This document shows, piece after piece, positions 42,221-60,015 of a stretch of DNA of 64,000 nucleotides. Every line of letters begins with the position of its first letter. Position 1 is the stretch's first letter. This stretch comes from Candidatus Pacebacteria bacterium GW2011_GWA1_46_10. Lineage in GTDB: Bacteria; Patescibacteriota; Microgenomatia; UBA1400; PJMF01. The position numbers and the translations under genes are program-made. The notes under the pieces are model-generated. The model was not told the DNA's origin. It did no database searches and saw nothing but the letters and a program-made list of their open reading frames with translations. Location: NCBI GenBank assembly GCA_001002135.1, contig LCLP01000001.1:8417-72416 (forward strand), in the 5' to 3' direction.

Positions 42221-42966
42221 TCATCAAAGTACTGTTCTTCCTTTTTAAAAACCAACAATCCCAACACCACTACCACTAAGGTTAAAGAAAGGGGAATAAG
42301 TAATGATTGACCAAAGGAAAAAGTTTCTGGTACGCCAAAGGCAGCTCTAAACAACTGAATAATAAGTGTCATGGGGTTTAGTACCAATAATTGTTGTAGT
42401 TGATGTGGCAAGATTTCTGGTGAGTAGATGATTGGGGTAGTGTAAAACCACAATGGGAGTAGGGCTTTGGTAAAAAAGTCAACGTCTCTAAACTTGACAT
42501 TTAAACTAGAGAAGAGCAGAGAAATGCCGGCAGTAAAAAAGAATAGCCAACTCACTGCCGCGGCCAGTAAGACAGCATTAACTGAGAAACCTGTAAATGG
42601 TAGCACCAGCAACAAACCAATAGAGAGATGGAGAAGGTTGGACAAAATGAGTGAGATCACTAGTGACTCTCTAGGGAATGCGGCTTTTTTGATTAAATAT
42701 CTTTCATACACGAATAATGGTGTAGCCTTGGAGAAGCTGGTAGTGAAAAAACTCCAAGGAAGTAGTCCTAAAAAGAGGTATAGGAAGTAGTTCTCAGTTC
42801 GAAAACCAGGGATAAACTGAAAAACCAAACCAATGACTAACATCTGTAAAAGAGGGTTGGCTACAATCCATAAAAATCCTAATGCGGCGTGTTTATATCT
42901 TCCCTTAATTTCCCGGCTAGTAAGAGCTAGAGTGAAGTCCAACCAATTTTGCCATTGCTTTACCAT
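42211..42966 (-). CDS. ABC-2 type transporter permease, TagG/Wzm-like
   Basis: Six-TM 251-aa permease immediately upstream of the TagH-like ATPase, with a 10-nt overlap. Confidence 0.8.
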   Translation of the reverse strand: MVKQWQNWLDFTLALTSREIKGRYKHAALGFLWIVANPLLQMLVIGLVFQFIPGFRTENYFLYLFLGLLPWSFFTTSFSKATPLFVYERYLIKKAAFPRESLVISLILSNLLHLSIGLLLVLPFTGFSVNAVLLAAAVSWLFFFTAGISLLFSSLNVKFRDVDFFTKALLPLWFYTTPIIYSPEILPHQLQQLLVLNPMTLIIQLFRAAFGVPETFSFGQSLLIPLSLTLVVVVLGLLVFKKEEQYFDDWM

Positions 42967-44129
42967 TTACGCGCTCCTTTTTGTTCGGAGTTTTGAATAA
43001 CCTTGGAGATATTTATTATCTTGTTTTTCCAACCGTTTGCTAGAGAAAGTTTACGCTGCCATTGCCCTACTTGAGAAGATTGCCGGCGAGTGAGTAGTGA
43101 TGTAATGGTTGTTTGCCAACTTTTGAGAGAAGGTTCTATTTTTACCAAGTTTGAAAACCTTTTGAGTTCAAGAATAGGGGCAGTAATAACTGGTTTTTTG
43201 CAATAGAAATACTCGAATAACTTCATTGGGTAGGAGTATTTAACGAGTAATTGCTTAGTATCGTAGGGAATAAGGCAAACATCAAACTGCTTAATGATGT
43301 TGGGAATTTCCCGTCGATCAGTACTTTGGCCGACTATCACGTTGGGCAGTTTTTTTAATGTATGAAGCTGTCGAGTGGTTTCAAGTTTATTTTCAAGAGA
43401 CATTTCTTGTACTGGTCCCCAGAGTACAAATTGCCACTGAGGGTTTCGTTTGATAAGTCGGTAGAGTAAAGCAAAGTCCAGCCGGTGGTCGATGGCGCCA
43501 ACATAACCAATGAGCGGTTTGTCTTTAGGAAATTTGGCTTTAGTTGTTTTGGGTTTAGCAAAGTCAGTTAACCGAAACCCTTGTGGTACTACTGCCGTTG
43601 GTCGGCGGGTGGTGGAGTGATGTTTGGCAAGCACTGCTGAATTAACAAAGAAAAAATCCACTTGTTTGATGAGTTTTTTTTCTTGAGTTTGCAACAGTTT
43701 TCGTAATTTTGGCTGGCGATGCCAGACGTAATCAACGCAGTCGTACAAAGCAATGAGTTTCGGGAAAGCCCACTTAACTTTGGGGTAAAACCAAAATCCT
43801 GGATCAAACAGCCATAAAATGGCCTGTTTTTTAGTAAGACCATCACGCAGTAGTAGGTACCAAATATTTAACAATTGGTTGAGTTTCTCAATCCCAGCTA
43901 ACCGCCGGACAGGAATCAGGTAGCGCGGTTGGTAAAACAAAATGTTCCGTCGGTGAGGAAATTGTTGTTTAGGTTTGGGTTTAAGCCAAAATCGTGCATC
44001 GGGTTGAATATAAGCGATAACCAAATTGTTTTTAGCCAGTTCCAGGCAGGTTTGCCACTGATAGTCAGCTGACCAATTCCAAGGCAATTGAAAAGGGATG
44101 ATTATTAAACTGTTTTTAAGCACGATCAA
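42960..44129 (-). CDS. glycosyltransferase, GT-B fold (group 1 / GT4-like)
   Basis: C-terminal 'PMKLFEYFYCKKPVIT' matches the GT4 'E-x7-E'-region nucleotide-sugar binding motif. 'LIGYVGAIDHRLDFALL'. Confidence 0.6.
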   Translation of the reverse strand: MIVLKNSLIIIPFQLPWNWSADYQWQTCLELAKNNLVIAYIQPDARFWLKPKPKQQFPHRRNILFYQPRYLIPVRRLAGIEKLNQLLNIWYLLLRDGLTKKQAILWLFDPGFWFYPKVKWAFPKLIALYDCVDYVWHRQPKLRKLLQTQEKKLIKQVDFFFVNSAVLAKHHSTTRRPTAVVPQGFRLTDFAKPKTTKAKFPKDKPLIGYVGAIDHRLDFALLYRLIKRNPQWQFVLWGPVQEMSLENKLETTRQLHTLKKLPNVIVGQSTDRREIPNIIKQFDVCLIPYDTKQLLVKYSYPMKLFEYFYCKKPVITAPILELKRFSNLVKIEPSLKSWQTTITSLLTRRQSSQVGQWQRKLSLANGWKNKIINISKVIQNSEQKGARKW

Positions 44130-45654
44130 CCCTCGCCTGTTTTCGACTTAACGTACTCAACCCAGCATACAAGAAAAAGTAAGAAGAAAGTTCCGGGTGA
44201 TTGAGGAAAATGGGGTAAAACATGGCGCAGAGCACGTAGATGCCCACTGCCAGGCTATATTCTTTGATTACACTCTGTTTTAGATACAAGAAAAACGGTC
44301 TCACTGTGGTGTAAACCAACATGAAAAAGAAAAAGGCGCCTACCATGCCGGTTTCAGCTAAGAGCTGAAAAAGTAAGTTGTGGGGATACGTTGGGTCAAA
44401 CACGAGTTGTTCTCCGGTAAATTCGGTAGCAAAGTAGTAAGGAGAAAGGTTAATACCAACCCCAAACCATGGGTTGCCCAACGCTAATCTAGCGGCGTAT
44501 TGAATCATGGCTAAACGGTAGGTGCCACTCCCATATTGGGTGAAAACATCAGTTAGAGTTTCAAGCCTTCTAGTAAGATAAGGAGCTAAAGCAGTGGCAA
44601 CAATTAAGGCCACCACTACTGTGCCGGCAAACAGTTTAGGATGATTCTTGAAGTTTAAATTTGGTTTGTTTTTTCGCCAAAACCACCAAGTCAGTCCCGC
44701 CAGCCACAGCCACACGCCATATAAAATCCGGCTACCGGTAAAAATAAGCGCTACACTTCCCACCCCTAATCCAAACCAGCCAAGTGTGTTAAGGATATGG
44801 CGCTGATCAGTGTGTCGTTTTCGGAGAACTAAGGGTAGTATGATCGCCATTTGCATCAACAAAAAAGTGCCCAGAATACTGGGCTCAAAAAAGGTGCCAG
44901 TAACACGCAGTAAACCAAGGTCCTCTGAAGCTAGGATACCGAATTGAGCTCCTGGTAAATAAACTTCAAGGTCTTTTCCGAGTGGTCCGCCGGATATTCG
45001 TTGGGCAATCACCCAGCTTGACTCAAACAGCAACGCTGCCAGTGCAACGCTCAGCACGAGTTTTTTGAGTTGCGTCTTTTGATGAGCAAATAGCAAAAGC
45101 GGCAATACCATCAATGCCATCATTCTTACCAGTTGTAGTGCAGACAGCCAACTTACCTCAGGGGCTACGCTCAGCGTGCCGCTGAAAACCACCCAAATAA
45201 TAAAAAGTGCCAGCCACCAGAATGGTTGCAGCTTTTTGAGCGTGGCGCCGATGGAGGTAACTATGGTTTTGTTTCGAAGGTATAAATATCCCAGTACACC
45301 CAGAAAAATATCAGCAAGGTAGACCGGAAAAAAGTAACTAATGTCAAACAGCACCCAGCGCTCGATACTTTCTTTGGGTAGCAGTAGGAGTTGGTAAGCT
45401 CGCCCCTTGGGAAACAACAGTGTTGCCAATAAACCAGCAAAAAGCGACAGTTTAAAGTTTTTAGTCAAGCGAAAGATGACGAGCCAATATAAAAAAGTCA
45501 GTAAAAAAAGTGTGCGGTTGTTAATACTGAAATACAGGCTAAAATAATAAAATAGCGTGGCGGAAAAAAGTTGAAGTGGGGGAGAAAAAGCTACTGCGAC
45601 TGTTCGGCCAATAAAGCTTTTTGATATAGTACGCAATAGTTTCATGAAATTCAT
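44116..45654 (-). CDS. polytopic membrane protein, possible O-antigen polymerase/ligase-like (Wzy_C-type)
   Basis: 12 or more TM segments, 512 aa, located inside the glycan cluster. No definitive motif read. Confidence 0.35.
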   Translation of the reverse strand: MNFMKLLRTISKSFIGRTVAVAFSPPLQLFSATLFYYFSLYFSINNRTLFLLTFLYWLVIFRLTKNFKLSLFAGLLATLLFPKGRAYQLLLLPKESIERWVLFDISYFFPVYLADIFLGVLGYLYLRNKTIVTSIGATLKKLQPFWWLALFIIWVVFSGTLSVAPEVSWLSALQLVRMMALMVLPLLLFAHQKTQLKKLVLSVALAALLFESSWVIAQRISGGPLGKDLEVYLPGAQFGILASEDLGLLRVTGTFFEPSILGTFLLMQMAIILPLVLRKRHTDQRHILNTLGWFGLGVGSVALIFTGSRILYGVWLWLAGLTWWFWRKNKPNLNFKNHPKLFAGTVVVALIVATALAPYLTRRLETLTDVFTQYGSGTYRLAMIQYAARLALGNPWFGVGINLSPYYFATEFTGEQLVFDPTYPHNLLFQLLAETGMVGAFFFFMLVYTTVRPFFLYLKQSVIKEYSLAVGIYVLCAMFYPIFLNHPELSSYFFLYAGLSTLSRKQARVDRA

Positions 45655-46462
45655 TATACAGAACCGTTTTTTGAGAAGATTGAATGTCTTTGATCTGGTA
45701 GTGGTGGCGGTTTTACTCCTAGTTTTAGGATCGTTTTTTTGGCTTCGTGTTTCACGGAAGACCGAGTGGATTGCACTGCGTCTAGTGGTGACTAATGATG
45801 CGTGGTGGTACGAAGGCTCTGCCCCTCAATGGTGGTATGCAGAAGGGTTGACTACTGGGCAGACCGCTAAAAATACGTTTGGTGAGACAATCGCCGAGAT
45901 TACCAACGTTCAAAGTTTTGATGTAGGAGCGTATTATCGTCGTGCTTTTATTGATTTAAAAGTTAAGGGCTACTACGACGCCAAACGTGGGATCTACATG
46001 TATAATTACCAGCCGCTCCAGATTGGCAAACCACTTGATCTTACTTTTGGCAAGAACAATGTCCGTGGGATTGTCACTTATATTGAAAACGCACCACAGG
46101 TTTTTACAGAGAAAACGATTGAAGTTTTTATTCCCGCTGTCCGTTTATGGGTAGCTCAGTCTTACAAGGAAGGAGTGGAGATGCGGGATTCTGAAGGGAG
46201 GACTCTCGCTAAAGTTCTCTCAGTGTCGATTACGCCAACCACGGCGCAAGAAGTGGTGAATGTTTTTCCAGATGTTGCTGAAGTAAAGTTTGCCCCTGAC
46301 CAGTTTTATGATCTAAGACTAACACTCTCTCTTCAAACCTTTGAAAGTGGGGGGGTGAGCTACTTTGTCGACCGAGCCGCTATTAAAGTGGGCGAACGGA
46401 TTTGGTTTCAGTTTCCGCAGACCGTTGTGCGCCAAGCTGAAATTACCCGCATTATCGAGTAA
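45644..46462 (+). CDS. hypothetical N-terminally anchored protein
   Basis: Single N-terminal TM followed by a soluble about 240-aa domain. Confidence 0.45.
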   Translation: MKFIIQNRFLRRLNVFDLVVVAVLLLVLGSFFWLRVSRKTEWIALRLVVTNDAWWYEGSAPQWWYAEGLTTGQTAKNTFGETIAEITNVQSFDVGAYYRRAFIDLKVKGYYDAKRGIYMYNYQPLQIGKPLDLTFGKNNVRGIVTYIENAPQVFTEKTIEVFIPAVRLWVAQSYKEGVEMRDSEGRTLAKVLSVSITPTTAQEVVNVFPDVAEVKFAPDQFYDLRLTLSLQTFESGGVSYFVDRAAIKVGERIWFQFPQTVVRQAEITRIIE

Positions 46463-47645
46463 TTTGTTGATACTTGGTTAAAAATTGTTGATTCCCTTTT
46501 TCACGATGATGGTGAGCAACATAGGTTAATCCCGACCGGCGAAGCTTTTTTTGTAAAGCGGTTGATTGGAGTACGCGAATGACCGCTCGAGCAAATTTAT
46601 CCGGCTGATCAACAATTAAACACTCTTGGTTATGGCGAACTGCGAGGCCTTCCACGCCCAAGTTGGTGGTAACTATAGGTAGGCTTGCAGACAAAGCAGT
46701 TAAACTTTTTAACCGCAGTCCGCCGCCCATGCGAAAAGGAAGGACAAAAACATCTGCTCGAGCAAGGAATGGTTCGAGATCAGCTTGATAACCATGTAGA
46801 AAAACATTTTTCTTCTTGGATAAAGTTTTTTCAAAAGGCGGGTGTGAGCGACCGACAACGTGAAACTCAACACCAGGGATCTTCTTTTCTATCGTGGGTA
46901 GCATTTTATTGATAAACCATCCCACCGCGTCTTCGTTGGGCGGCCAGCCGAGAGTGCCGACAAAGAGAATGGTAGGATTTTTAGAGCGCTTTTTCTTAAT
47001 TGGCCGCGCTGGATAAACCAGCGGCTGAGCCGCCACATGTTTCACTCCAAAGATTTTTTCCAACCGTTTTTTTTCTGGCTCAGAAATAGCAAAGACAAAA
47101 TCAAACTTAGGCAGGGTTTTTCTTTCATAAAGGTAAGTCAGCACCATTTCGATCAGTAAATACAACTTGCGCGTTGGTTTGGTCGTACTCACAAATCTGG
47201 TCCAGTAAAGATAAGTTTCCACGTTGTGATGCTCTAAAATCCATTTTTCTTTTTTAATCTCCGGCAAGTATTGGGCCGTGTTCAGGTGGTCAACGTGAAT
47301 GATAGCTGGTTGAAACTCTTTTATTTTTCTTTGAATAAAAGCGCTGGCGGGAGGATGGGTGTATTGGAAAACGTAATGTGGAATGCCGCGCAGAAAGTGG
47401 CTGAATAAATTCAAAAGATCATCTTTCACGGAAGCAAGAATGGTAGAACTATAGAAAACTTTCAGTTTGATACCGGCGTCGGTTAGAACTTTTATATCTT
47501 TGTCAGCCGGTTTTTCCTCGGAGATGAAAACAGCAAAAACTTGGTATTTTTTCGCCAACGTCAAAACAGTGTTGAGGGTTTTTATTTTTCCGCCCGAATC
47601 AGGTGGAGAAGGGAATAGCTGGCTCAGATACAGCATTTTTTTCAT
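46452..47645 (-). CDS. family 4 glycosyltransferase (GT-B)
   Basis: 'KNVFLHGYQADLEPFLARADVFVLPFRMGGGLRLKSLTALSASLPIVTTNLGVEGL' is the classic GT4 C-terminal motif. Confidence 0.85.
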   Translation of the reverse strand: MKKMLYLSQLFPSPPDSGGKIKTLNTVLTLAKKYQVFAVFISEEKPADKDIKVLTDAGIKLKVFYSSTILASVKDDLLNLFSHFLRGIPHYVFQYTHPPASAFIQRKIKEFQPAIIHVDHLNTAQYLPEIKKEKWILEHHNVETYLYWTRFVSTTKPTRKLYLLIEMVLTYLYERKTLPKFDFVFAISEPEKKRLEKIFGVKHVAAQPLVYPARPIKKKRSKNPTILFVGTLGWPPNEDAVGWFINKMLPTIEKKIPGVEFHVVGRSHPPFEKTLSKKKNVFLHGYQADLEPFLARADVFVLPFRMGGGLRLKSLTALSASLPIVTTNLGVEGLAVRHNQECLIVDQPDKFARAVIRVLQSTALQKKLRRSGLTYVAHHHREKGNQQFLTKYQQITR

Positions 47646-48403
47646 TGTTTTTTGAGTAGATCACCAATAAGTTGTTTGATAATAAGCAAGCTAAAAAGGG
47701 TGTTAAATAAAAAATACCGTTTTGCCAATCGTTTTGGTTCTTGGGCAAATCTAAATAACCATTCCAAGCCGATCGATTGCAACCAGGATGGAGCCTGTCT
47801 GACCTTGCCGGTCATAAAGTCGAAGGCGGCACCAACACCGATCGCCACGGCCTGTTTGAGCTTCGGTGCGGCTTTCATCATCCACTGTTCTTGGAAAGGA
47901 CAACCCAGGCCGACAAAGACTATTTTTGCTTGTGAAGTGTTGATTTGTTTGATGATGTGTCGATTTTTTTCGTCAGGAATTGGCCTGATTGGTGTGTCTA
48001 ACTGGCCGACGATTTTTAGACTGGGAAATGTGTTTTGTAAGACTTGTTTGAGTTGCTGGCTTTGACCTTTAGCCCCACCGAGTAGAAATATTGGCCAGCG
48101 CTTTTGCACTGCTTTTTGACAAACCAGCTTCATTAGGTCAGGCCCGTAAACGCGTTCAACTGGTCGCTGACCATACAGTTTCAAAAGCCACGCAAGCGGC
48201 ATGCCATCGGGAGTGACTAACCCTGCTTGGTTAACTCCCTTAAGTAGTTGGAGGTCAGCCTGACACTCCATGATTAAGTGAACAGCTGCCACACACACGT
48301 AGTGTGGTTGACGGTTTTTAACCCATGAGGAGATGGTTTTGATGGTCAGTGAATACGTAAGGACAGAGACGTTTACCCCGAGAATATTAGTGGCTTTGTT
48401 CAT
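47642..48403 (-). CDS. tagA: WecB/TagA/CpsF family glycosyltransferase (GT26; N-acetylmannosaminyltransferase-like)
   Basis: 'ILGVNVSVLTYSLTI...PHYVCVAAVHLIMECQ...LVTPDGMPLAWLLKLYG...IFLLGGAKG...IVFVGLGCPFQEQWM' follows the TagA/WecG pattern. Confidence 0.8.
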   Translation of the reverse strand: MNKATNILGVNVSVLTYSLTIKTISSWVKNRQPHYVCVAAVHLIMECQADLQLLKGVNQAGLVTPDGMPLAWLLKLYGQRPVERVYGPDLMKLVCQKAVQKRWPIFLLGGAKGQSQQLKQVLQNTFPSLKIVGQLDTPIRPIPDEKNRHIIKQINTSQAKIVFVGLGCPFQEQWMMKAAPKLKQAVAIGVGAAFDFMTGKVRQAPSWLQSIGLEWLFRFAQEPKRLAKRYFLFNTLFSLLIIKQLIGDLLKKQ

Positions 48404-49424
48404 ATTCGATGATCTCGTCGATAATTTGATTAAGCGACTTAGTAATACGCCATTTTGGATAGGCTTTTTTAAATTTCGCTAAATTAGTGGTATAGCAGAT
48501 GTGGTCGCCAGTACGATGTTTAGGTGTGTAAGTGATTTTTGGCTTGATAGCCAGTTTTTTGGAAACGGTTTCGATCAACTCCAAAATTGAGGCATTGTTT
48601 TTGGTGCCCCCACCCAAGTTAAAAACGGTTCCTTGTGGTGGTTTTTTAATGATCTCATGTATAGCAGTAGCCACGTCGTAGGCGTCAATTTGATCACGTA
48701 CTTGTTTCCCTTTATAACCAATGATTTGATAACTGTTGGTGTGAACTAAAGATTTAATCAGGTAAGACAGAAAACCGTGTAACTTAACTGAGTGGTGGGC
48801 TACACCAGTGACACAACCGAGGCGCAGACAGGTGGTTTTTAGGCCAAAGTACCGGCCGTATTCTTGGACGTAAAGATCGGCTGCAGCTTTGCTGGCGCCC
48901 ATCAGTGAGTGGAGGTTTTGGTCGATGGACATGGTTTCATCTATGCCTTGAAAATGTTGATCGGCAAACCTGTAGCGTTTGGCTAGTTCCTTGAGTGGGA
49001 GGCGATTAGGATTGTCACCATAAACTTTATTGGTACTGGTAAAAATGAAAGTAGCCCCAGGACTGAAGTTTCGAACCGCCTCAAGTAAAGTGAGGGTGCC
49101 CTCAGTATTTATTTCAAAATCTAAGCGAGGAATTTCAGCGGCTTTGTCATGACTTGGTTGACCAGCACAGTGAATAACAGCGTCAAATTTTTCCTTTTTA
49201 AACAACGCGTTTATTTTTTTAACCTCTCTGATGTCTACATCAAAGTGAGTGTAATGAGGAAACTTTTGCAATGATTTTTTGGTTGAAGAGGTCGTGGCTT
49301 TTTTACCAAAAAAACTTGAGCGCATATTGTTATCAATGCCGAAGACTCGGTGCTTTTTCTCGAGGAAATACCGAGTTGCTGTGGAGCCGATCAGGCCAGT
49401 GGAGCCGGTAATACAAATTTTCAT
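48387..49424 (-). CDS. NAD-dependent nucleotide-sugar epimerase/dehydratase (SDR family)
   Basis: Rossmann 'MKICITGSTGLIGSTATRYF' (GxxGxxG). A YxxxK region near 'YGRYFGLKTT' is plausible. 345 aa. Confidence 0.8.
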   Translation of the reverse strand: MKICITGSTGLIGSTATRYFLEKKHRVFGIDNNMRSSFFGKKATTSSTKKSLQKFPHYTHFDVDIREVKKINALFKKEKFDAVIHCAGQPSHDKAAEIPRLDFEINTEGTLTLLEAVRNFSPGATFIFTSTNKVYGDNPNRLPLKELAKRYRFADQHFQGIDETMSIDQNLHSLMGASKAAADLYVQEYGRYFGLKTTCLRLGCVTGVAHHSVKLHGFLSYLIKSLVHTNSYQIIGYKGKQVRDQIDAYDVATAIHEIIKKPPQGTVFNLGGGTKNNASILELIETVSKKLAIKPKITYTPKHRTGDHICYTTNLAKFKKAYPKWRITKSLNQIIDEIIEYEQSH

Positions 49425-49431
49425 ACTTTCT

Positions 49432-50583
49432 TTATGGCTGTTTTCGTTGTTTGAGCAATTGCCTATTAATCGTTGTCAAAAATTGTTGTCGAAAAATGTT
49501 TTCGGAGAACCGCTGAGCCTGTTTGGTGCAGGCGATAGTTGACCATGATTTCTGCTCAAACGTTTTAACTGCTCTGGTCAGAGATTTTAGCGAATATTTA
49601 TTAAACAACAAGCCTGTTTTACCATGACTGACTGTCTCCCTGACACCGCCAGAAGCATAAGCAATCACTGGCACACCATAACTCATTGCTTCAACTGGCA
49701 CTAGACCAAAGTCTTCTTCGACCGCGCCGTAAACCAGGGCTTTAGTATCTTTGTATATTTTGCTGATGTTTTTGTCGGTGAGAAAACCCTTGAAGATGAT
49801 GTGGGACTGAGCGAGTTTTTGAAGTCGTTTTTTTTCTGAGCCTTCACCAACAACTACGAGCGGTTTTTTCAACTGGTTAAAGGCCCTGATAACTAATTCC
49901 GCTCCTTTTTGCTTGACCAACCTGGAATGAAAAAGATAGTATTTTGGACTAACAGTACGCTTGACGGTTTTGTTTTTAGGCAATATTACTGGAGGATAGA
50001 TGACTTGACTTGCCCGCTGGTAGTATTTGGCGATTCTTTGTTGGGTGGTTTTGGAGTTAGTGATTAGGATGTCTGGGCGTTGGGCGGCTTGATAGTCAAT
50101 TTTTCTCAACGCTGTCAAAAAACCAGCAAATAGCCATTTAAAAAGTGGCTTTTTTAGCCAACTCATTTCGTTGAATTCTTGGTAAAGGTAGCGCGGTGGA
50201 GTATGAATATAGGCTATGTGTAGGGTTGGTTGCTGAGTTTTCACTGATTTGGCTGAGAATGAGTGAGATGAAGAAATAACTAAATTGTACTGACTTAAGT
50301 TAAGTTGACGCCAATACCATAAAATAAACGGCTTAATAAAACTGACGTATTTTTCCGGCCATACAACTAGGTTGAAAATCGAGGTGAAAACGCGATGTTT
50401 TTGGCGCAGTTTCTTTAAATATGGCTTCCTGATTAAGGGAATGTAAACATCAGCTTGCGGAAAGAGGGTGAGCAAACTGAGCAAAACTCGTTCTGCCCCA
50501 CCTTGGTAAAGATAACTGTCGTGAACAATGGCCACCGACATTTTTTTTAACTGGTGTTGTTTTGAGAGTTTAGCTTGCCTCAT
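49432..50583 (-). CDS. family 4 glycosyltransferase (GT-B)
   Basis: 'GGAERVLLSLLTLFP' at the N-terminus and 'EDFGLVPVEAMSYGVPVIAYASGGVRETV' at the C-terminus. Confidence 0.85.
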   Translation of the reverse strand: MRQAKLSKQHQLKKMSVAIVHDSYLYQGGAERVLLSLLTLFPQADVYIPLIRKPYLKKLRQKHRVFTSIFNLVVWPEKYVSFIKPFILWYWRQLNLSQYNLVISSSHSFSAKSVKTQQPTLHIAYIHTPPRYLYQEFNEMSWLKKPLFKWLFAGFLTALRKIDYQAAQRPDILITNSKTTQQRIAKYYQRASQVIYPPVILPKNKTVKRTVSPKYYLFHSRLVKQKGAELVIRAFNQLKKPLVVVGEGSEKKRLQKLAQSHIIFKGFLTDKNISKIYKDTKALVYGAVEEDFGLVPVEAMSYGVPVIAYASGGVRETVSHGKTGLLFNKYSLKSLTRAVKTFEQKSWSTIACTKQAQRFSENIFRQQFLTTINRQLLKQRKQP

Positions 50584-53247
50584 AATCCAAACTTGGTTGT
50601 CTACGACAGCGTACGTAATATGATACCTTCTTTTATAATCACTCCGTCGATCTTTTCGGTTTTTTTGATTCTTATTTTGTTGCTGGGCGATTCCTTTTTA
50701 CGTTGGTACTTGATTGGTTTTTTGGCCCTTTTTTTTCTGTTAGCCAGGAAAAATCTTGACTTTAGCTGGGTCAAATATCAGCAGCGACCACTTTTTTTGT
50801 GGGGAATTTTTTTGGGGCTAGCTATAGTTTCTGCGTTTTTTACCCACAACGTGCCGCTCAGTTTAGAGTCGCTGGCGTATTATGGGTTTGCATTTCTGGT
50901 GTTTGTGACAGCTTTGTCGGTGCCGTTGACCAAATCTGTTAAAGAACAACTGTCTTTTTTTGTGGTGTTTATCGGATTCACGCTGTCGTTATTAAGTTTA
51001 TTACTGCTGTTTAACCGTAGTTTGGCCGCTTCTTTGCCGGGGATGAATTTACTGTACCCCACGTACGGCCACAATCATTTAGCGGCTTTTTTGTTACTGG
51101 TTTTACCATTGGGGTGGCGACTGGTGTTGTTTTCGCGACCGCAAGGACAGCGATCTTTGTTTGCAGTGGCTGTTATTACTACTGTTGTTGTGACACTAGC
51201 GTTGCTTTTGAGCTTCGGCCGCACGGCGCTTTTTTTAGGTATTTTGGAGTTAACGATTATCTGGTTTTTTGCTTGGCGCTTCCGTTCCAAGGAGAATGTT
51301 CGAGGTCTTTTGTTTAGGGTAGGGTTACCACTAGTGGTGTTGGCCTTTTTATTTGTTTTTGGCGCCAAGATGTATTTTTCGTATCGGTCGGTTGTCGATA
51401 GTAATTTTATTTGTCCGGTGCCCAGTTGGGCAACTCACAAACTGTGTAAACCGTTTGATACTGAGCTTCGGCTGCTTTATTTTGGTCAGGCGATCAGCGC
51501 GATGAAGGAGTACCCCTTTAATGGGTATGGTCCAGGTACTTTTCAACTTATTAACGAAAAATATCAACAACTGCCTTTTGTTGACACGGCGTATGCCCAT
51601 AATCACTTTCTTCAAACAGGAGCGGAAATGGGAATCGTGGCTGGGGCGATTTTCTTACTGTTGATACTGACTTTATACTGGCGAGCTTTTCAAGTTGTTT
51701 TTCTTAACCGATCGGCAAAGGAAAAAACTTTTAGTTTTAATAAGGCGCTGTATATCAGTGCCGCCGGCTCTTTTTTGAATGCTTGGTTGGATTTTGACTG
51801 GAATTACATTGGTATTTTTACCTTGACGCTTTTTTACCTGGGATTGATTTTGCGTCAGACAAGTACATTCAAAAGAACCAATTGGCGGTTTTATTTTCCG
51901 GTGTCGTTCGTTTCAAAAATGATTGCTTTGGGGTTGTTTACACTAGCAGGGCTTTATATATTCGTTGAATTTTTGACGAGAACTGGTCGGGTGAGGGCAG
52001 CTTTCGACGTTTTCCCGTATTTCAAGGAGCATTTGAAGGTTTTTGAAGCAGAAAGGAAGTCTTTTTCTCCGTCCCAACAGCAGCAATTTTTGTCGTTGTA
52101 TAGGTATCGTCCTACTGCTTACTTTTTTGTTGAGAAACTGCCTGTGGAAGCAGTTTTTGCCGAGGCGAGAGAAGAAATATTTCGCCTTAATCCTTGGCAA
52201 AATCTCTCCTCAAAAGACATTGACTGGTATTTGGAGCATGGTGACTATCAAGCTGCCGATCAAAATTTGACGGCATTAATTGACCGAGTGGAACACGCTG
52301 AGCAGTACTATGATTACCGGCTTGGATTTACCAGAAAAATGGTATTAGTAAATCAGCGGCTTACTCTAGCTGATTATTACCTCCAAATTGGCAACCCACA
52401 AAAAGGCGCGCAGTACTATTTATGGGCGCGCAGTACAGAGCCCTGGATTTTTGACCACCGTTTACCGCCGGTAAATGATCAGTCCAAGGCTGATTTAATA
52501 GAGTTTTTATTGGTGGTTGATCCGTTGGAACCGCAGTGGTGGGGAAGACATTATCAAAACTTAGTCGGTTGGTATTTTCAGGTTTTTTCGTCTGCTGTAA
52601 AGAGTGGCGATGAAGAACAAATGCAATTTTGGTTTGAACTAATCGATGAAAAGTTCACTAATCTAACACTCAGACTGTGGGAGATGGGGAGTGAGTGGTT
52701 GGCTGATTCAGTGCAAACTGCTGTAGGAACCCAAGATCAAGCGTTGGCCAAGCAAAAAGTTGACCAATGGTTTAAGCTCTGGGAACTTTATAGAGGAAGA
52801 GTTAAGGATAATACTCAACTTAATCAAGCCGAAACTCAGTTGGCGGAAGAGTTAGTGAGAGTAAGTGGGTCAGCTCTCTCTCCATCTTTAGAGCAGAGTC
52901 TGCAAGCGGCTGCTGATGAATACTTGGCTGTAAAAGACGTGGACTTCGCGGAGAAGTCACTGACTCTTTTGGCTCAGCGGCCTGGCGAGAACTACTGGTG
53001 GAAAGCACAGCTTGGTCATTTTTACGTTTTTCTGGCTGATCAAGCTCACACGGCTGATGAAAAAACTCAATGGCGAGTTAAAGCGGTTAAAGCCTTTGAT
53101 GATTGTTTAGCGGCTTTCCGTGGCGATCATGATGACTGTGCTGGTGGTAAAGCTGACCTACAAGCGGGTACACCATTTGTGGGACGCTATACTCAAGTCA
53201 GTCAAATCATTCAGGGAAAAAAGCGCTGGCAGGATTTTAGCGATTGA
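50575..53247 (+). CDS. O-antigen ligase (Wzy_C) domain membrane protein fused to a large C-terminal helical, TPR-like extracytoplasmic domain
   Basis: About 12 TM N-terminal half containing 'YAHNHFLQTGAEMGIVAGAIFLL' (O-antigen ligase family H-N...E-G motif). The C-terminal 450 aa is helical-repeat rich. 890 aa. Confidence 0.6.
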   Translation: MPHNPNLVVYDSVRNMIPSFIITPSIFSVFLILILLLGDSFLRWYLIGFLALFFLLARKNLDFSWVKYQQRPLFLWGIFLGLAIVSAFFTHNVPLSLESLAYYGFAFLVFVTALSVPLTKSVKEQLSFFVVFIGFTLSLLSLLLLFNRSLAASLPGMNLLYPTYGHNHLAAFLLLVLPLGWRLVLFSRPQGQRSLFAVAVITTVVVTLALLLSFGRTALFLGILELTIIWFFAWRFRSKENVRGLLFRVGLPLVVLAFLFVFGAKMYFSYRSVVDSNFICPVPSWATHKLCKPFDTELRLLYFGQAISAMKEYPFNGYGPGTFQLINEKYQQLPFVDTAYAHNHFLQTGAEMGIVAGAIFLLLILTLYWRAFQVVFLNRSAKEKTFSFNKALYISAAGSFLNAWLDFDWNYIGIFTLTLFYLGLILRQTSTFKRTNWRFYFPVSFVSKMIALGLFTLAGLYIFVEFLTRTGRVRAAFDVFPYFKEHLKVFEAERKSFSPSQQQQFLSLYRYRPTAYFFVEKLPVEAVFAEAREEIFRLNPWQNLSSKDIDWYLEHGDYQAADQNLTALIDRVEHAEQYYDYRLGFTRKMVLVNQRLTLADYYLQIGNPQKGAQYYLWARSTEPWIFDHRLPPVNDQSKADLIEFLLVVDPLEPQWWGRHYQNLVGWYFQVFSSAVKSGDEEQMQFWFELIDEKFTNLTLRLWEMGSEWLADSVQTAVGTQDQALAKQKVDQWFKLWELYRGRVKDNTQLNQAETQLAEELVRVSGSALSPSLEQSLQAAADEYLAVKDVDFAEKSLTLLAQRPGENYWWKAQLGHFYVFLADQAHTADEKTQWRVKAVKAFDDCLAAFRGDHDDCAGGKADLQAGTPFVGRYTQVSQIIQGKKRWQDFSD

Positions 53248-53875
53248 AGAAAGAAAGTAAAATTGCTTTTATTGAAAGCAGGATTTGTTTTAGATCTTCT
53301 CCGACACCGCCTTTGACCACTGTGGCTTCTTCTAATTCTTGCCAGCGTTTTAACGTATGATGTTTTTCTTTGGAAAATGCCCACTGTGAAAACACTCCTG
53401 GTTTCACTTGTTCCCGCCACGCCCGCCACGCTGGCGGTAAACCTTCGGCCTCAGGGACCGGCAGCGGCCGGGGTCCCACGAAACTCATCTCTCCTTTGAG
53501 AATATTCCATAACTGCGGTAACTCATCCAGGCCGGTGCGAGCCAACCACTTGCCGATCCCGACAAATCGAGGATCGTTGTGGATCTTAAACATCGGTGCC
53601 GGCGCTTCGTTGAGGTGCTGATATTTACGTTTGAGCATGGCGGCATTTTTAGTCATGGTGCGTAGCTTAAGTAGGGTAAAAACTTTACCGTTTTGACCAG
53701 TGCGGCGTTGTTTAAAAAGAATTGGTCGACCAGTAGTAATAAAAATAATCAGGTTGAGAATGAATAAAACGGGACTTAGTAAAACCAGCAGCAAGAGTGC
53801 AGTTGCAAAATCGAAAGTTCTTTTTTGGGGAGAAAAGTAATAGGGGTGTATCTGCATAAAGAATGAGTATAACAA
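53237..53875 (-). CDS. polyprenyl-phosphate sugar phosphotransferase (small PglC/WbaP-C-terminal-type bacterial sugar transferase)
   Basis: 'KRTFDFATALLLLVLLSPVLFIL...GRPILFKQRRTGQNGKVFTLLKLRTM...FKIHNDPRF...LDELPQLWNILKGEMSFVGPRP'. Confidence 0.85.
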   Translation of the reverse strand: MLYSFFMQIHPYYFSPQKRTFDFATALLLLVLLSPVLFILNLIIFITTGRPILFKQRRTGQNGKVFTLLKLRTMTKNAAMLKRKYQHLNEAPAPMFKIHNDPRFVGIGKWLARTGLDELPQLWNILKGEMSFVGPRPLPVPEAEGLPPAWRAWREQVKPGVFSQWAFSKEKHHTLKRWQELEEATVVKGGVGEDLKQILLSIKAILLSFFNR

Positions 53876-55382: not shown

Positions 55383-55562
55383 ATGGCGAAGCAACGGATG
55401 ATCGTGACTGACGATCAATTACTGATCGACATGAACCTTTTGTTTAATGCAATTCGTGAGGCAGGCGGTGATTGGGAAAAAGTGGAGGCAGATATGAATG
55501 AATATCTGGCTTCTATCCAAGCAATGTCTGGCACGCACGAACAGAGCAAACCGAAGAAATAA
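55383..55562 (+). CDS. possible small ORF (59 aa), not in the supplied ORF track
   Basis: ATG...TAA open frame 'MAKQRMIVTDDQLLIDMNLLFNAIREAGGDWEKVEADMNEYLASIQAMSGTHEQSKPKK'. No RBS check done. Confidence 0.2.
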   Translation: MAKQRMIVTDDQLLIDMNLLFNAIREAGGDWEKVEADMNEYLASIQAMSGTHEQSKPKK

Positions 55563-55602
55563 ACGTAACAACGTTTTCTTTCAGCCTGCGTTAAGGAAAA
55601 TT

Positions 55603-56232
55603 ATGGCAAAGACTCAAATTCCCTACGTTATTACCTGTGGTGATGAGGGTGTGCAGGTTAATGTTGGAGTCCGATTGGCTTTTGTCGGTGCTGGTTACGA
55701 GTTGCCAGGTTTTCACGAGGTGGTTAAAATTCTCAAGAAATTATTTGGTAGCAAGCTATACATCGTTTCCAATCAAGAAAATGACTGGGTAAAACAGAAA
55801 ATGAACCTCTCAGATTGGGAGCAGACGAATGCTTCTGCCCAACAGCAAATTGAGGCGTTGGCTGACAAAGAACGATTGCTATATGTCGGCTATTTACCTT
55901 TTGCCGATCCCAAAAAACTCAAGTACGGCATTAAAGGTCACATGGTGCGCCCTAAGAAAGTGCACGTGGCCAATAAAATTTGTTTTACTCTTGGCGGTGG
56001 TGAGCAGATCTACAACCTTGGTTGCTATCGAATCAGCGCTGATTGGGTAGGGAGTGCACCCAAAAATTTGGTTGAGCAAGTTATCAAGCCACAAGTCGAG
56101 TTTTACAAGAAACTTTCGTCTGGTAAGTTGCAACTGGTATACGAATTGGGTGGTGAACTGGGTGAAAAAATAGCCAAAAAAAACCTCAAAAGTTTACAGA
56201 AAATTGGTTTAAAGCCAGTGCCTTTATCTTAA
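55603..56232 (+). CDS. hypothetical protein (ORF open from 55498; the AAGGA-preceded ATG at 55603 is preferred)
   Basis: 'aaggaaaattATG' RBS spacing. 209 aa, no motif recognized. Confidence 0.45.
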   Translation: MAKTQIPYVITCGDEGVQVNVGVRLAFVGAGYELPGFHEVVKILKKLFGSKLYIVSNQENDWVKQKMNLSDWEQTNASAQQQIEALADKERLLYVGYLPFADPKKLKYGIKGHMVRPKKVHVANKICFTLGGGEQIYNLGCYRISADWVGSAPKNLVEQVIKPQVEFYKKLSSGKLQLVYELGGELGEKIAKKNLKSLQKIGLKPVPLS

Positions 56233-56415: not shown

Positions 56416-56489
56416 GGGCCCTTAGCTCAGTTGGCTAGAGCGCTACATTTGCAATGTAGAGGTCAAGGGTTCGAGCCCCTTAGGGTCCA
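56416..56489 (+). tRNA. tRNA-Ala (anticodon UGC)
   Basis: 74-nt cloverleaf. Acceptor GGGCCCU/AGGGUCC with the G3:U70 Ala identity pair. Anticodon loop UUUGCAA, T-loop UUCGAGC, discriminator A. Confidence 0.9.
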
Positions 56490-56647
56490 CAGGATTCTAG
56501 GGCTGTTTGTTATTCGTTCTCTGGCAACCTCACCGGGTTGTGCTGAGAGCGAACAACAAGCAGCTCACACTGTTTGACGCTCCTTAAAAAGTGAAGAGAA
56601 TTGTCATTTGAAATAGATACATTCGTCGAGAATGAAAATTATTTCGC

Positions 56648-59513
<2,866 letters not shown>

Positions 59514-59614
59514 GAAATTTTGTTCTTTGACGCATGTAATTACAAGATGACAAACACTCTTCACTTTTTAGGGAGCGAAAGCTCTTTTAAATATCTTTTA
59601 AAAAAAGCGTTTTA

Positions 59615-59732
59615 TTCTGGTCTCTAGAGCGAGGTGGTACCAACTCTTCCCATCCCGAACAGAGTCTTGAAACGCCTCAGCGCTGACAATAGTTTTCCCT
59701 TGTTGGAAAGCGAAGATAGGTCGAGGCCAGAA
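59615..59732 (+). rRNA. rrf: 5S ribosomal RNA
   Basis: 'CCCATCCCGAACAGAG...GAAAC' loop motifs. Helix I pairing between the 5' TTCTGGTC and 3' GGCCAGAA ends. About 118 nt. Confidence 0.8.
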
Positions 59733-59752
59733 TCAAGCGCTTTTTTTATTTT
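59733..59752. terminator. short palindrome plus T-run after 5S (weak bidirectional terminator)
   Basis: AAGCGCTT palindrome followed by TTTTTTT. Confidence 0.35.
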
Positions 59753-60015
59753 CCGTAGACTTGTTTGTGAGTGCCCATGCTAAAGAAATAATATTGATTA
59801 TCACTGATAAATACCAACCTAAAATTTTTATCAACTGAAATGCTCCAAACATTTTTTAAACTGCCGTGCAATTTGTGCAAGCGCAGTGATGGATGTCGAG
59901 GGTTGATTTGGAAAACTTTTAATTGTTTTTTGACTTTTGAAAAAAGTTGACGATCGTTATGTTTGAGGTGTCGGAGTTGTCTCTGGAAAGTGGAGCTAAA
60001 AGTAATTGGTTTCAT
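59746..60015 (-). CDS. type II toxin-antitoxin system toxin, RelE/ParE (YoeB/YafQ-like) superfamily
   Basis: 89 aa. 'HPSLRLHKLHGSLKNVWSISVDKNFRLVFISDN...GTHKQVY' matches the RelE-fold conserved pattern. 4-nt ATGA overlap with the upstream gene. Confidence 0.7.
   Translation of the reverse strand: MKPITFSSTFQRQLRHLKHNDRQLFSKVKKQLKVFQINPRHPSLRLHKLHGSLKNVWSISVDKNFRLVFISDNQYYFFSMGTHKQVYGK

What the first reader, a model, noticed from the sequence alone, without database searches (positions are those of the whole stretch)
50575..53247. O-antigen ligase domain fused to a 450-aa TPR-like extracytoplasmic domain
The N-terminal about 430 aa form a Wzy_C/WaaL-type polytopic domain including the conserved H-N...E-G loop (YAHNHFLQTGAEMG). 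The C-terminal half is a soluble helical-repeat region rich in W/Y/Q. Ligases normally lack large soluble domains; a TPR-like module could recruit a protein acceptor. This fits a WaaL-family O-oligosaccharyltransferase (PglL/PilO-like) that glycosylates a surface protein such as the neighbouring pilins or LPXTG proteins, rather than a lipid. A second Wzy-like protein (44116..45654) could be the polymerase.
Basis: partly seen in the sequence, partly recalled or inferred. Interest (0 to 1): 0.55.

Follow-up and report, generated by a model that had tools for sequence, protein, structure and literature searches.

The report
PglL/WsfB-like glycan ligase with TPR-like ectodomain
This gene from an uncultivated ultra-small (CPR/Patescibacteria) bacterium encodes a membrane enzyme of the O-antigen-ligase family with an extra membrane helix and a large outward-facing helical-repeat domain. 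That is the layout of known bacterial enzymes that attach sugar chains to surface proteins, so it is a plausible but unproven and fairly ordinary new member of that kind.

Summary
The gene is 50620..53247 (+), 875 aa, identical to hypothetical protein UX28_C0001G0063 of Candidatus Pacebacteria GW2011_GWA1_46_10.

- **Topology.** A 13th helix, the positive-inside pattern across 29 homologues and two conserved cysteine pairs place the 421-aa C-terminal domain outside the cell.
- **C-terminal domain.** It has a TPR-like fold. Pfam TPR models miss it, and it occurs almost only in this fusion (70 clusters, CPR metagenomes).
- **Gene context.** A small phosphoglycosyl transferase lies convergently next to the gene in about 20 of 22 related loci. 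This window also has WecG/TagA, GT4s, an epimerase and a TagH/Wzm-like ABC exporter. That gene set mirrors the S-layer glycosylation loci of Geobacillus and Paenibacillus, whose transferase WsfB is also Wzy_C plus TPR.

The enzyme most likely moves a finished lipid-linked glycan onto a surface acceptor, probably a protein. The acceptor is unproven. The second Wzy_C protein is not clearly a polymerase, and the 'pilins' are distant T4SS-type pilins. I rate it a new member of a known kind, of moderate interest.

The parts
50620..53247 (+). Whole gene: 875-aa Wzy_C/WaaL-family membrane enzyme with an extracytoplasmic helical-repeat domain (the stop codon is included).
   Evidence: ORF. The ATG start is supported by the exact public protein and by the homologue N-termini. 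The AF2 model has pLDDT 89.3 and pTM 0.78.
50620..51864 (+). TM1-TM12, the WaaL-like GT-C(B) catalytic membrane domain (residues 1-415).
51178..51657 (+). Pfam Wzy_C (PF04932) match, residues 187-346.
   Evidence: E=1.8e-16, 60.7 bits against cutoff 31.7.
51361..51627 (+). Large outer loop between TM9 and TM10 (residues 248-336). It holds invariant R284, G302, G304 and H327, and the conserved pair C265/C276.
   Evidence: Invariant columns. R284 aligns with the Arg of WaaL RLKIW and H327 with WaaL HAHN and PglL-type SHN. The Cys pair is conserved in 25 of 29 sequences.
51592..51633 (+).
   Evidence: Position; conservation; alignment to the WaaL and O-OTase His.
51211..51222 (+). SFGR motif (residues 198-201). 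R201 lies at the outer end of TM8 and is probably a pyrophosphate-binding Arg.
   Evidence: R201 is invariant or nearly invariant. It aligns with the Arg of WaaL 'TRGA' and 9rmk 'NSRT'.
51790..51801 (+). DFDW motif in the short outer loop between TM11 and TM12 (residues 391-394). D391 aligns with E404 of the PglL-type O-OTase.
   Evidence: Conservation. The alignment to 9rmk_A 'MLEYPLWY' places D391 on residue 404. E404 of N. meningitidis PglL is functionally important according to PMC12800693.
51883..51981 (+). TM13 (residues 422-454), the extra helix that takes the chain back across the membrane so that the C-terminal domain lies outside.
   Evidence: AF2 helix 422-454. The preceding loop 413-433 is K/R-rich, averaging 4.1 K+R over 29 homologues. 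'In' loops total 16.8 K+R and 'out' loops 4.9.
51982..53244 (+). C-terminal 421-aa helical-repeat (TPR-like) ectodomain. The first 200-280 residues are the best conserved. A C-terminal module of about 115 aa holds the conserved pair C829/C840.
52366..52446 (+). The one near-canonical TPR unit, LADYYLQIGNPQKGAQYYLWARSTEPW (residues 583-609).
   Evidence: Family profile positions 563-593 match consensus and designed TPR proteins repeatedly. Position.
53237..53857 (-). Convergent, 11-nt-overlapping small phosphoglycosyl transferase (Bac_transf, 206 aa), the conserved partner gene.
   Evidence: Pfam Bac_transf E=3.4e-46. NCBIfam best hits are the EPS/WbaP/EpsZ catalytic domain. Adjacent in about 20 of 22 non-identical related loci.
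46452..50583 (-). Divergent operon of cytoplasmic glycan-assembly genes: GT4 (49432..50583), NAD-dependent epimerase/dehydratase (48387..49424), WecG/TagA-family GT (47642..48403) and GT4 (46452..47645).
   Evidence: Pfam; NCBIfam; conserved in close relatives L004 and L009.
44116..46462 (.). Second Wzy_C protein (44116..45654, minus strand, 512 aa, no ectodomain), with a conserved single-pass partner of 272 aa (45644..46462, plus strand, weak DUF4330 match).
   Evidence: Pfam Wzy_C E=2.2e-17. hhalign to the N-terminal profile gives 88.8% probability, with GSR, YRL and PHN aligned to R201, R284 and H327. The pair is conserved in L004.
41453..44129 (-). GT1-family transferase (42960..44129) and an ABC-2 exporter: permease 42211..42966 and ATPase 41453..42220.
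   Evidence: Pfam ABC2_membrane and ABC_tran. NCBIfam best hits are TagH/teichoic-acid export and Wzt for the ATPase, and Wzm/RfbD and KpsM for the permease. All are below the curated cutoffs.

Best explanation
The gene encodes the final, outside-the-membrane enzyme of a cell-surface glycosylation pathway in a CPR (Pacebacteria) bacterium.

**Proposed pathway (inferred by analogy; the sugars are unknown).**
1. The convergent small phosphoglycosyl transferase starts a glycan on polyprenyl phosphate.
2. The WecG/TagA-family and GT4/GT1 transferases extend it in the cytoplasm, using sugars supplied by the epimerase/dehydratase.
3. The TagH/Wzm-type ABC exporter moves the finished polyprenyl-diphosphate-linked glycan across the membrane.
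4. The 875-aa protein transfers it en bloc to an acceptor.

**Proposed catalysis.** It follows the WaaL/PglL scheme. R201 and R284 hold the diphosphate, and H327 (with D391) activates the acceptor hydroxyl on the outer face.

**Role of the extra parts.** The 13th helix places a 421-aa TPR-like helical-repeat domain outside the cell, where it most likely binds and presents the acceptor. The most probable acceptor is a surface protein, which would make this a PglL/WsfB-type O-oligosaccharyltransferase.

**Shown here.** Fold, conserved residues, the predicted topology and the conserved gene pairing.

**Inferred.** Donor, direction of transfer, the role of the ectodomain and the nature of the acceptor.
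For: - **Catalytic residues.** R201, R284 and H327 are invariant or nearly invariant in homologues and align with the corresponding Arg and His of WaaL and of O-OTase 9rmk_A. D391 aligns with residue E404 of 9rmk_A, and PMC12800693 calls E404 important in PglL.
- **Nearest solved relative.** The best PDB sequence hit of the N-terminal profile is the O-OTase 9rmk_A (E=6.2e-11, 44.9 bits). WaaL follows at E=1.2e-9, 40.7 bits.
- **Topology.** There are 13 TM helices in a confident model. K+R totals are 16.8 in predicted inner loops against 4.9 in outer loops, averaged over 29 homologues. The protein's only four cysteines form two pairs, conserved together, in the large loop and in the C-terminal domain, which fits disulfides outside the cell.
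- **Match to known O-OTases.** PglS is modelled with 13 TMs and a periplasmic C-terminal domain. WsfB and PglL are described as Wzy_C plus a C-terminal TPR, and WsaB has a separate TPR neighbour, WsaA.
- **Gene context.** The PGT is adjacent in about 20 of 22 related loci. This window combines a WbaP-type PGT, a ManNAc-transferase-family GT (WecG/TagA), other GTs and a Wzm/Wzt-like exporter. PMC2943079 describes that combination for S-layer glycosylation loci. Asn-synthase homologues, like wsfA, occur in the distant loci.
- **Candidate acceptors.** In 10 related loci the gene after the PGT encodes a 520-585-aa surface protein with S/T/A/P-rich linkers and a C-terminal sorting-like signal. In this window, three PT-linker proteins with LPXTG-like ends lie at 31266..33863.
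Against: - No experiment or computation here identifies the acceptor.
- The score difference between the O-OTase and WaaL hits is small: 44.9 against 40.7 bits with A3. With the smaller A2 profile only WaaL was found.
- The O-OTase-specific Pfam domains I know of (PglL_A, Wzy_C_2) were not reported for this protein.
- The candidate acceptor gene that neighbours the PGT in distant loci is absent from this window. The window's PT-rich proteins sit next to a different candidate glycosyltransferase, a PMT_2-like GT-C.
- The transferases weakly resemble teichuronic-acid enzymes (TuaC, TuaH), and the exporter ATPase resembles TagH. That would also fit a cell-wall polymer pathway.
- The topology is predicted, not measured.
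- The C-terminal domain length varies from 213 to 646 aa among homologues, so much of it may be dispensable.
Confidence: 0.5

Rival explanations
1. Glycopolymer ligase with a non-protein acceptor. The enzyme transfers an ABC-exported, teichoic- or teichuronic-acid-like polymer from its polyprenyl carrier to peptidoglycan or to a membrane glycolipid anchor. LCP enzymes or WaaL do this job in other bacteria. The TPR-like domain would bind the cell wall or the polymer.
For: - WaaL is the top structural match.
- The exporter's best family hits are TagH (teichoic-acid export) and Wzt, and the GTs weakly match TuaC, TuaH and TarA-family enzymes.
- No LCP-family gene was seen among the window ORFs scanned.
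- The ectodomain is rich in aromatic residues and Gln, which would suit glycan binding.
- The locus sits in a conserved core-genome region next to MurJ in distant relatives.
Against: - No Wzy_C-family enzyme is known to me to ligate to peptidoglycan.
- The 13-TM-plus-ectodomain layout is that of the protein O-OTases, not of WaaL, which has 12 TMs (my knowledge of E. coli and C. metallidurans WaaL).
- TPR modules fused to or beside Wzy_C enzymes have so far been tied to protein glycosylation.
- Only 64 kb of the genome was examined, so an LCP gene may lie elsewhere.
Confidence: 0.25
2. Wzy-type polymerase. The protein polymerises Und-PP-linked repeat units on the outer face, and the helical-repeat domain acts as a built-in chain-length regulator or export scaffold. 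The second Wzy_C protein would then be the ligase.
For: - Pfam Wzy_C also covers Wzy polymerases (PMC4594306 treats Wzy and WaaL together).
- Two Wzy_C paralogues in one cluster would suit a polymerase-plus-ligase division of labour.
- TPR scaffolds are known in polysaccharide export systems (a reference cited in PMC2943079).
Against: - The cluster has an ABC-2 exporter, and no Wzx/MOP flippase was found among the ORFs of 380 aa or more in the window. In ABC-dependent routes the chain is completed in the cytoplasm.
- The invariant His and the Asp aligned to PglL H349 and E404 are ligase/OTase hallmarks.
- The paralogue that is conserved across the lineage, always with the PGT, is the TPR-bearing one. 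The second paralogue was found next to it only in the close relative L004, and an unrelated second Wzy_C gene lies in L008. A pathway could lack a polymerase, but it is hard to see how it could lack a final transferase.
Confidence: 0.15
3. Not a glycan transferase at all, for example an IctB-like transporter or a degenerate, structural membrane protein that happens to keep the Wzy_C fold.
For: Some Wzy_C-family proteins were historically annotated as bicarbonate transporters (IctB, mentioned in PMC4594306). NCBIfam gives no family assignment for this protein.
Against: The catalytic Arg/Arg/His residues are invariant, the pairing with a PGT is strict, and the gene sits among GT genes. The closest solved relatives are active ligases/OTases.
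Confidence: 0.03

Closest known systems
WsfB of Paenibacillus alvei and WsaB (+ WsaA) of Geobacillus stearothermophilus: S-layer protein O-oligosaccharyltransferases (PMC2943079)
   Same: - Monoderm-type envelope.
- A Wzy_C domain with a C-terminal TPR (WsfB), or with a separate TPR protein next door (WsaA/WsaB).
- A locus that combines a WbaP-type PGT, ManNAc-transferase-type and other GTs and a Wzm/Wzt exporter. An Asn-synthase homologue (wsfA) parallels those in distant CPR loci.
   Different: - I had no WsfB or WsaB sequence, so no direct sequence comparison was possible.
- The C-terminal domain here is not detected by Pfam TPR models and is lineage-specific.
- No S-layer gene was identified in the window.
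- According to the cited review, the WsfB and WsaB activities were themselves predicted rather than proven at that time.
PglL (Neisseria) / PglS and TfpO (Acinetobacter, Pseudomonas): Gram-negative O-oligosaccharyltransferases
   Same: - Best solved sequence relative: 9rmk_A, whose numbering matches PglL H349 and E404.
- Conserved His and acidic residue.
- 13 TMs plus an extracytoplasmic C-terminal domain, as in the PglS model.
- Known substrates of PglL include low-complexity Ser/Ala/Pro-rich regions (my knowledge), which resemble the linkers of the candidate acceptors.
   Different: - The similarity is restricted to about 220 residues of the catalytic core.
- The C-terminal domain is much larger: 421 aa against about 110 in PglS.
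- No PglL_A or Wzy_C_2 Pfam domains were reported.
- The organism has no periplasm bounded by an outer membrane (my knowledge of CPR envelopes).
WaaL, the lipid A-core:O-antigen ligase (PDB 7tpg/7tpj)
   Different: - WaaL has 12 TMs with a cytoplasmic C-terminus and no ectodomain (my knowledge).
- Its acceptor is lipid A-core. A CPR bacterium with a Gram-positive-like envelope is not expected to make LPS (my knowledge; not testable from this window).
Wzy O-antigen/capsule polymerases and TuaE-type polymerases of Gram-positive wall polymers
   Same: Same Pfam family and fold class. The GTs in the cluster weakly resemble teichuronic-acid enzymes.
   Different: These polymerases work with a Wzx flippase and usually a Wzz-type co-polymerase. 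Here an ABC-2 exporter is present and no Wzx was found.
Eukaryotic TMTC1-4 and bacterial PMT_2-TPR proteins (a GT-C enzyme fused to luminal or periplasmic TPRs)
   Same: Functional analogy only, from my own knowledge: a polytopic lipid-linked-sugar transferase fused to TPRs on the non-cytoplasmic side that select protein acceptors.
   Different: They belong to a different GT-C subclass (GT-C(A), polyprenol-monophosphate-sugar donors). There is no sequence relationship, and this was not tested here.

Membership tests
Wzy_C / O-antigen-ligase superfamily (PF04932; GT-C(B) fold) | Significant match to the Pfam Wzy_C model above its gathering score | tested here: met
   E=1.8e-16, 60.7 bits against cutoff 31.7, residues 187-346.
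Wzy_C / O-antigen-ligase superfamily (PF04932; GT-C(B) fold) | WaaL-like polytopic fold | tested here: met
Wzy_C / O-antigen-ligase superfamily (PF04932; GT-C(B) fold) | Conserved outer-face Arg, Arg and His | tested here: met
   R201, R284 and H327 are invariant or nearly invariant and align to the WaaL and 9rmk residues.
PglL/PglS/WsfB-type protein O-oligosaccharyltransferase | Extra (13th) TM helix and an extracytoplasmic C-terminal domain | tested here: met
   Predicted only. AF2 helices, positive-inside counts over 29 homologues and conserved Cys pairs. Compared with the PglS description in PMC12800693.
PglL/PglS/WsfB-type protein O-oligosaccharyltransferase | Catalytic His (PglL H349) and acidic residue (PglL E404) | tested here: met
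   H327 aligns with residue 349 of 9rmk_A and D391 with residue 404 (Glu to Asp).
PglL/PglS/WsfB-type protein O-oligosaccharyltransferase | O-OTase-specific Pfam domains (PglL_A PF15864, Wzy_C_2 PF11846; the names are from my own knowledge) | tested here: not met
   The Pfam scan at E<=0.01 lists only Wzy_C. These domains mark proteobacterial subfamilies and are not universal, as far as I know.
PglL/PglS/WsfB-type protein O-oligosaccharyltransferase | Transfer of an Und-PP-linked glycan to Ser/Thr/Tyr of a protein | not testable with these tools
   Needs glycoproteomics or an in vitro or heterologous assay.
PglL/PglS/WsfB-type protein O-oligosaccharyltransferase | An identifiable acceptor protein that is genetically linked | tested here: inconclusive
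   An S/T/P-rich surface protein is adjacent in 10 distant loci but absent from this window. PT-linker LPXTG-like proteins lie 17 kb away.
WaaL sensu stricto (lipid A-core ligase) | 12 TM helices with a cytoplasmic C-terminus and no ectodomain (my knowledge) | tested here: not met
   13 TM helices plus a 421-aa outer domain.
WaaL sensu stricto (lipid A-core ligase) | The organism makes lipid A-core | not testable with these tools
   Only a 64-kb window was available. No LPS genes were seen among the ORFs scanned.
Wzy polymerase (Wzx/Wzy-dependent pathway) | Accompanied by a Wzx (MOP-family) flippase and a Wzz-type co-polymerase | tested here: not met
   No Polysacc_synt or MOP hit among the scanned window ORFs. 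An ABC-2 exporter is present instead. This covers the window only. The 272-aa single-pass partner of the second Wzy_C protein is of unknown role.
TPR repeat proteins (Pfam TPR clan) | Significant match to a Pfam TPR model | tested here: not met
   Best hits are TPR_16 E=0.6 and TPR_14 E=2.3.
TPR repeat proteins (Pfam TPR clan) | TPR-like helical-hairpin superhelix at the profile or fold level | tested here: met

The most novel reading that the evidence does not exclude
The Wzy_C-ectodomain protein and its small PGT form the conserved core of a general protein O-glycosylation system across Paceibacteria and related CPR lineages. A lineage-specific, rapidly varying helical-repeat ectodomain would select surface proteins that carry S/T/P-rich linkers and C-terminal sorting signals. 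This would be the first protein glycosylation machinery defined in CPR bacteria, and possibly part of how these episymbionts decorate their host-contact surface.
Probability: 0.4. Interest if true: 0.55.

Novelty: new member of a known kind. Interest (0 to 1): 0.36.

Why it matters
CPR/Patescibacteria are uncultivated, genome-reduced bacteria, and the chemistry of their cell surface is almost unknown. A ligase-plus-initiating-transferase pair kept in the conserved core genome region of many of them points to a surface glycoconjugate that matters to their lifestyle. If the acceptor is protein, the family gives a concrete handle for studying CPR surface glycoproteins: heterologous expression with the cluster, followed by glycoproteomics. 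It would also add a divergent O-OTase with an unusually large acceptor-binding module to the bioconjugation toolbox. As it stands, this is a well-supported annotation improvement, from 'hypothetical protein' to a PglL/WsfB-like glycan ligase, not a new principle.

Tried and rejected
- **Single-sequence searches.** phmmer of the N-terminal domain against PDB sequences found nothing useful. Profiles were needed.
- **NCBIfam.** It gave no family for either Wzy_C protein or for the DUF4330-like protein.
- **Fold libraries.** Foldseek against AFDB50 was not available on the machine, so I could not survey annotated full-length structural analogues.
- **Genome scan.** The search for related loci with the full alignment failed for lack of a conserved stretch. 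The N-terminal alignment worked, but through one peptide pattern only, so the 17 loci are a lower bound.
- **Distant hits.** The cluster-member look-up of the distant Wzy_C proteins that carry canonical TPRs returned no names or taxa.
- **Literature.** Searches for 'WsfB', for CPR plus O-antigen ligase, and for WaaL cryo-EM mostly returned irrelevant papers. The Lipocone preprint mentions O-antigen ligase only in its references.
- **Pilins as acceptors: rejected.** They are T4SS_pilin/TrbC-type, 41-44 kb away, and not linked to the gene in other loci.
- **The TTG start at 50575: rejected.** It overlaps the divergent gene's start and disagrees with the homologues.
- **The 3.5-kb gene-free stretch downstream.** I considered that it might be something unusual; it is 23S plus 5S rRNA.

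Full report
**1. What is there.** The ORF 50575..53247 (+) exists. Its TTG start overlaps the ATG of the divergently transcribed GT4 gene at 50583. The ATG at 50620 gives an 875-aa product. That product is identical over its full length to a public protein, 'hypothetical protein UX28_C0001G0063, Candidatus Pacebacteria bacterium GW2011_GWA1_46_10'. The closest homologue (50% identity) also begins MIPAF. I therefore take 50620..53247 as the gene and number residues from that Met. The window comes from a CPR/Patescibacteria genome.

**2. The N-terminal domain.**
- Pfam Wzy_C matches residues 187-346 with E=1.8e-16.
- An AlphaFold2 model built on 29 homologues is confident, with mean pLDDT 89.3 and pTM 0.78.
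- Profiles of the N-terminal domain hit two solved proteins. One is 9rmk_A, an 'Oligosaccharyltransferase' of 610 aa (E=6.2e-11). The other is WaaL 7tpg_B (E=1.2e-9).
- In those alignments the family's invariant or nearly invariant residues fall on known functional positions. They align with the corresponding Arg, Arg and His of WaaL (RGA, RLKIW, HAHN) and of 9rmk_A.
- The invariant D391 of a DFDW motif falls on residue 404 of 9rmk_A, a Glu.
- PMC12800693 names the proposed catalytic His of WaaL and PglS, and names E404 of N. meningitidis PglL as functionally important. From my own knowledge, H349 is the essential His of PglL. By my count of the alignment, the aligned His of 9rmk_A is residue 349.

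**3. Topology.**
- The model has 13 long hydrophobic helices: 3-22, 28-45, 49-73, 78-100, 105-131, 153-171, 178-196, 201-220, 226-259, 339-362, 373-390, 397-415 and 422-454.
- I anchored the large catalytic loop (248-336) outside, as in WaaL.
- The alternating loops then obey the positive-inside rule across all 29 homologues. Predicted inner loops carry 16.8 K+R in 80 residues on average. Outer loops carry 4.9 in 67 residues, and one of those is the catalytic R201.
- Four helices follow the catalytic loop, so the C-terminus ends outside.
- The protein has only four cysteines. C265/C276 lie in the outer loop and are conserved in 25 of 29 sequences. C829/C840 lie in the C-terminal domain and are present together in every sequence that has either. 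Both pairs fit extracytoplasmic disulfides.
- WaaL has 12 helices and a cytoplasmic C-terminus (my knowledge). The O-OTase PglS is described as having 13 helices and a periplasmic C-terminal domain that forms a cleft with the loops (PMC12800693).
- The second refutation condition, a cytoplasmic C-terminal domain, is therefore also not met, although this is a prediction.

**4. The C-terminal domain.**
- Residues 455-875 form about 22 helices. The domain is acidic (net charge -14) and rich in Gln, Tyr and Trp.
- No Pfam TPR model reaches significance on the sequence.
- The family profile matches consensus TPR proteins at residues 583-609, and matches Hop, OGT, CTR9 and DNAJC3 over longer stretches. 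The model matches P58IPK, SPINDLY, OGT, LGN and a Bacteroides TPR protein. 'TPR-like' is fair.
- A phmmer search of this domain against 1.84 billion representative proteins returned only 70 hits.
- Nearly all of those hits lie from about residue 440-480 onward, or at the extreme C-terminus, of 700-975-aa proteins. That is the same fusion.
- No generic TPR protein was hit. The domain is thus a divergent, family-specific module.
- Its length varies from 213 to 646 aa among homologues. One example is a 748-aa protein on a 140-kb contig. The proximal 200-280 residues are the best conserved part. They include FPYF..H just after TM13 and an invariant P466.

**5. Distribution and gene context.**
- A scan of one genome per species found 17 loci. 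By their titles they are Pacebacteria, Paceibacterota, Woesebacteria or Patescibacteria MAGs. The remainder are labelled 'uncultured Pseudomonadales' or 'Limisphaerales', which I suspect are mislabels or mis-binning.
- Across the metagenomic and genomic loci, a small Bac_transf phosphoglycosyl transferase lies immediately beside the gene in about 20 of 22 non-identical loci, usually convergent.
- In this window the two genes overlap by 11 nt.
- Upstream, on the other strand, lie a GT4, an NAD-dependent epimerase/dehydratase, a WecG/TagA-family transferase and another GT4.
- Next comes a second Wzy_C protein with a single-pass partner, then a GT1.
- Last is an ABC-2 exporter. Its best family hits are TagH/Wzt for the ATPase and Wzm/KpsM for the permease, all below the curated cutoffs.
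- I found no Wzx-type flippase, LCP ligase or sortase among the window ORFs I scanned.
- The surrounding genes (S1, S20, LepA, MurJ, PilN/PilO, DUF5657) are syntenic between distant relatives. This is therefore a core-genome locus and not a variable island.

**6. Comparison with what is known.**
- The review PMC2943079 describes the S-layer glycosylation loci of G. stearothermophilus and P. alvei.
- Those loci contain a WbaP-type initiating enzyme, cytoplasmic GTs that include ManNAc transferases, and a Wzm/Wzt exporter.
- They end with a Wzy_C-domain O-oligosaccharyltransferase. WsfB carries a C-terminal TPR motif. WsaB lacks one but has a TPR protein, WsaA, next door.
- The review says PglL also has a C-terminal TPR motif.
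- It notes that combining a WbaP homologue with an ABC exporter is unusual. The same combination occurs here.
- The P. alvei locus also holds an asparagine-synthase homologue (wsfA). Asn-synthase homologues sit in the distant CPR loci.
This gene fits that model.

**7. Candidate acceptors.**
- In 10 related loci the gene beyond the PGT encodes a 520-585-aa surface protein.
- That protein has an N-terminal anchor, an fn3-like domain, Ser/Thr/Ala/Pro-rich linkers and a C-terminal IPVSG-plus-hydrophobic tail.
- It is absent from this window.
- The window itself has three tandem genes (31266..33863, minus strand) for Cys-rich proteins with long PTPTPT linkers. Two of them end in LP(Q/V)(T/A)G plus a hydrophobic tail.
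- Those genes lie 17 kb away, next to a PMT_2-like GT-C enzyme and a GT2-YdjC fusion, which could glycosylate them instead.
- The 'pilins' at 6411..9442 are T4SS_pilin/TrbC-type and are unlikely targets.

**8. The second Wzy_C protein.** This 512-aa protein aligns to the same profile, with GSR, YRL and PHN at the Arg/Arg/His positions. By this criterion it is no more polymerase-like than the first. With an ABC exporter present, a polymerase is not needed. Its role is open: a second ligase for another acceptor, or a polymerase for a different glycan.

**9. Verdict.** The enzyme class, the outer location of the helical-repeat domain and the resemblance to O-OTases all stand. The protein acceptor, the named acceptors and the polymerase assignment remain unproven.

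| Reading | Probability |
|---|---|
| Any WaaL-superfamily glycan transferase acting on the outer face | about 0.85 |
| Protein O-OTase | about 0.5 |
| Ligase to a non-protein envelope acceptor | about 0.25 |
| Polymerase | about 0.15 |

It is a new, lineage-specific member of a known kind. Interest is moderate, mainly because nothing is known about surface glycosylation in CPR bacteria and because the ligase-PGT pair is so widely conserved there.

Noticed in passing
window 31266..33863 (-): Three tandem genes (251, 288 and 272 aa) encode N-terminally anchored, Cys-rich proteins with long Pro/Thr linkers (PTPTPT...). Two of them end in LP(Q/V)(T/A)G-P(E/A)DWL(K/R)YLQ(I/V)G plus a hydrophobic tail, an LPXTG-like sorting signal without the usual basic end. 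They are plausible O-glycosylation substrates.
   Followed up: partly
window 34786..38845 (-): A possible second glycosylation module: a PMT_2-like GT-C protein (517 aa, E=2.8e-4), a 380-aa polytopic protein with no Pfam match, and a GT2-YdjC fusion (459 aa). It looks like a polyprenol-phosphate-sugar route that could modify the adjacent PT-rich proteins.
   Followed up: partly
loci L005-L008, L010, L012, L014-L016, L022 (e.g. L006 13295..14860, L007 13628..15385): In the more distant relatives, a conserved 520-585-aa surface protein is encoded directly beyond the PGT, followed by PilO/PilN-like genes and MurJ. It has an fn3/Pur_ac_phosph_N-like domain, S/T/A/P-rich linkers and a C-terminal IPVSG plus TM segment. 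No homologue exists in this window.
   Followed up: partly
window 6411..9442 (-) and 22220..24556 (+): Six tandem paralogues of small T4SS_pilin/TrbC-VirB2-like proteins share a WITSGGDKGK-type motif. A VirD4/TrwB-like coupling ATPase lies 13 kb away. Together they suggest a type IV secretion or conjugation-like apparatus.
   Followed up: no
window 56416..59732 (+): tRNA-Ala(TGC), 23S rRNA (56649..59512) and 5S rRNA (59616..59732) are present without a 16S gene directly upstream, where a 244-aa ORF sits at 55498..56232. The rRNA genes therefore appear to be unlinked.
   Followed up: no
window 31104..31181 (-): ARAGORN calls a tRNA-Ile with anticodon TAT (UAU). As far as I know, this is uncommon in bacteria, which usually read AUA with a modified CAU tRNA.
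   Followed up: no
window 38907..41444 (+): An 845-aa cytoplasmic protein has only a weak nucleotidyltransferase (NTP_transf_2) match near its N-terminus. It sits between the two glycosylation modules, and its function is unknown.
   Followed up: no
window 45644..46462 (+): A 272-aa single-pass membrane protein (weak DUF4330 match on the TM region only) overlaps the start of the second Wzy_C gene. It is conserved with that gene in L004 and is also present in L017. It may be a co-factor of that enzyme, such as a chain-length regulator.
   Followed up: partly
loci L005, L006, L008 (e.g. L006 1400..3205): Asparagine-synthase homologues of about 600-720 aa sit in the glycan clusters of distant relatives. 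They recall wsfA of the P. alvei S-layer glycosylation locus.
   Followed up: no
window 59746..60344 (-): A small gene pair carries weak YafQ/HigB-like toxin matches, a putative toxin-antitoxin module, directly after the 5S rRNA.
   Followed up: no
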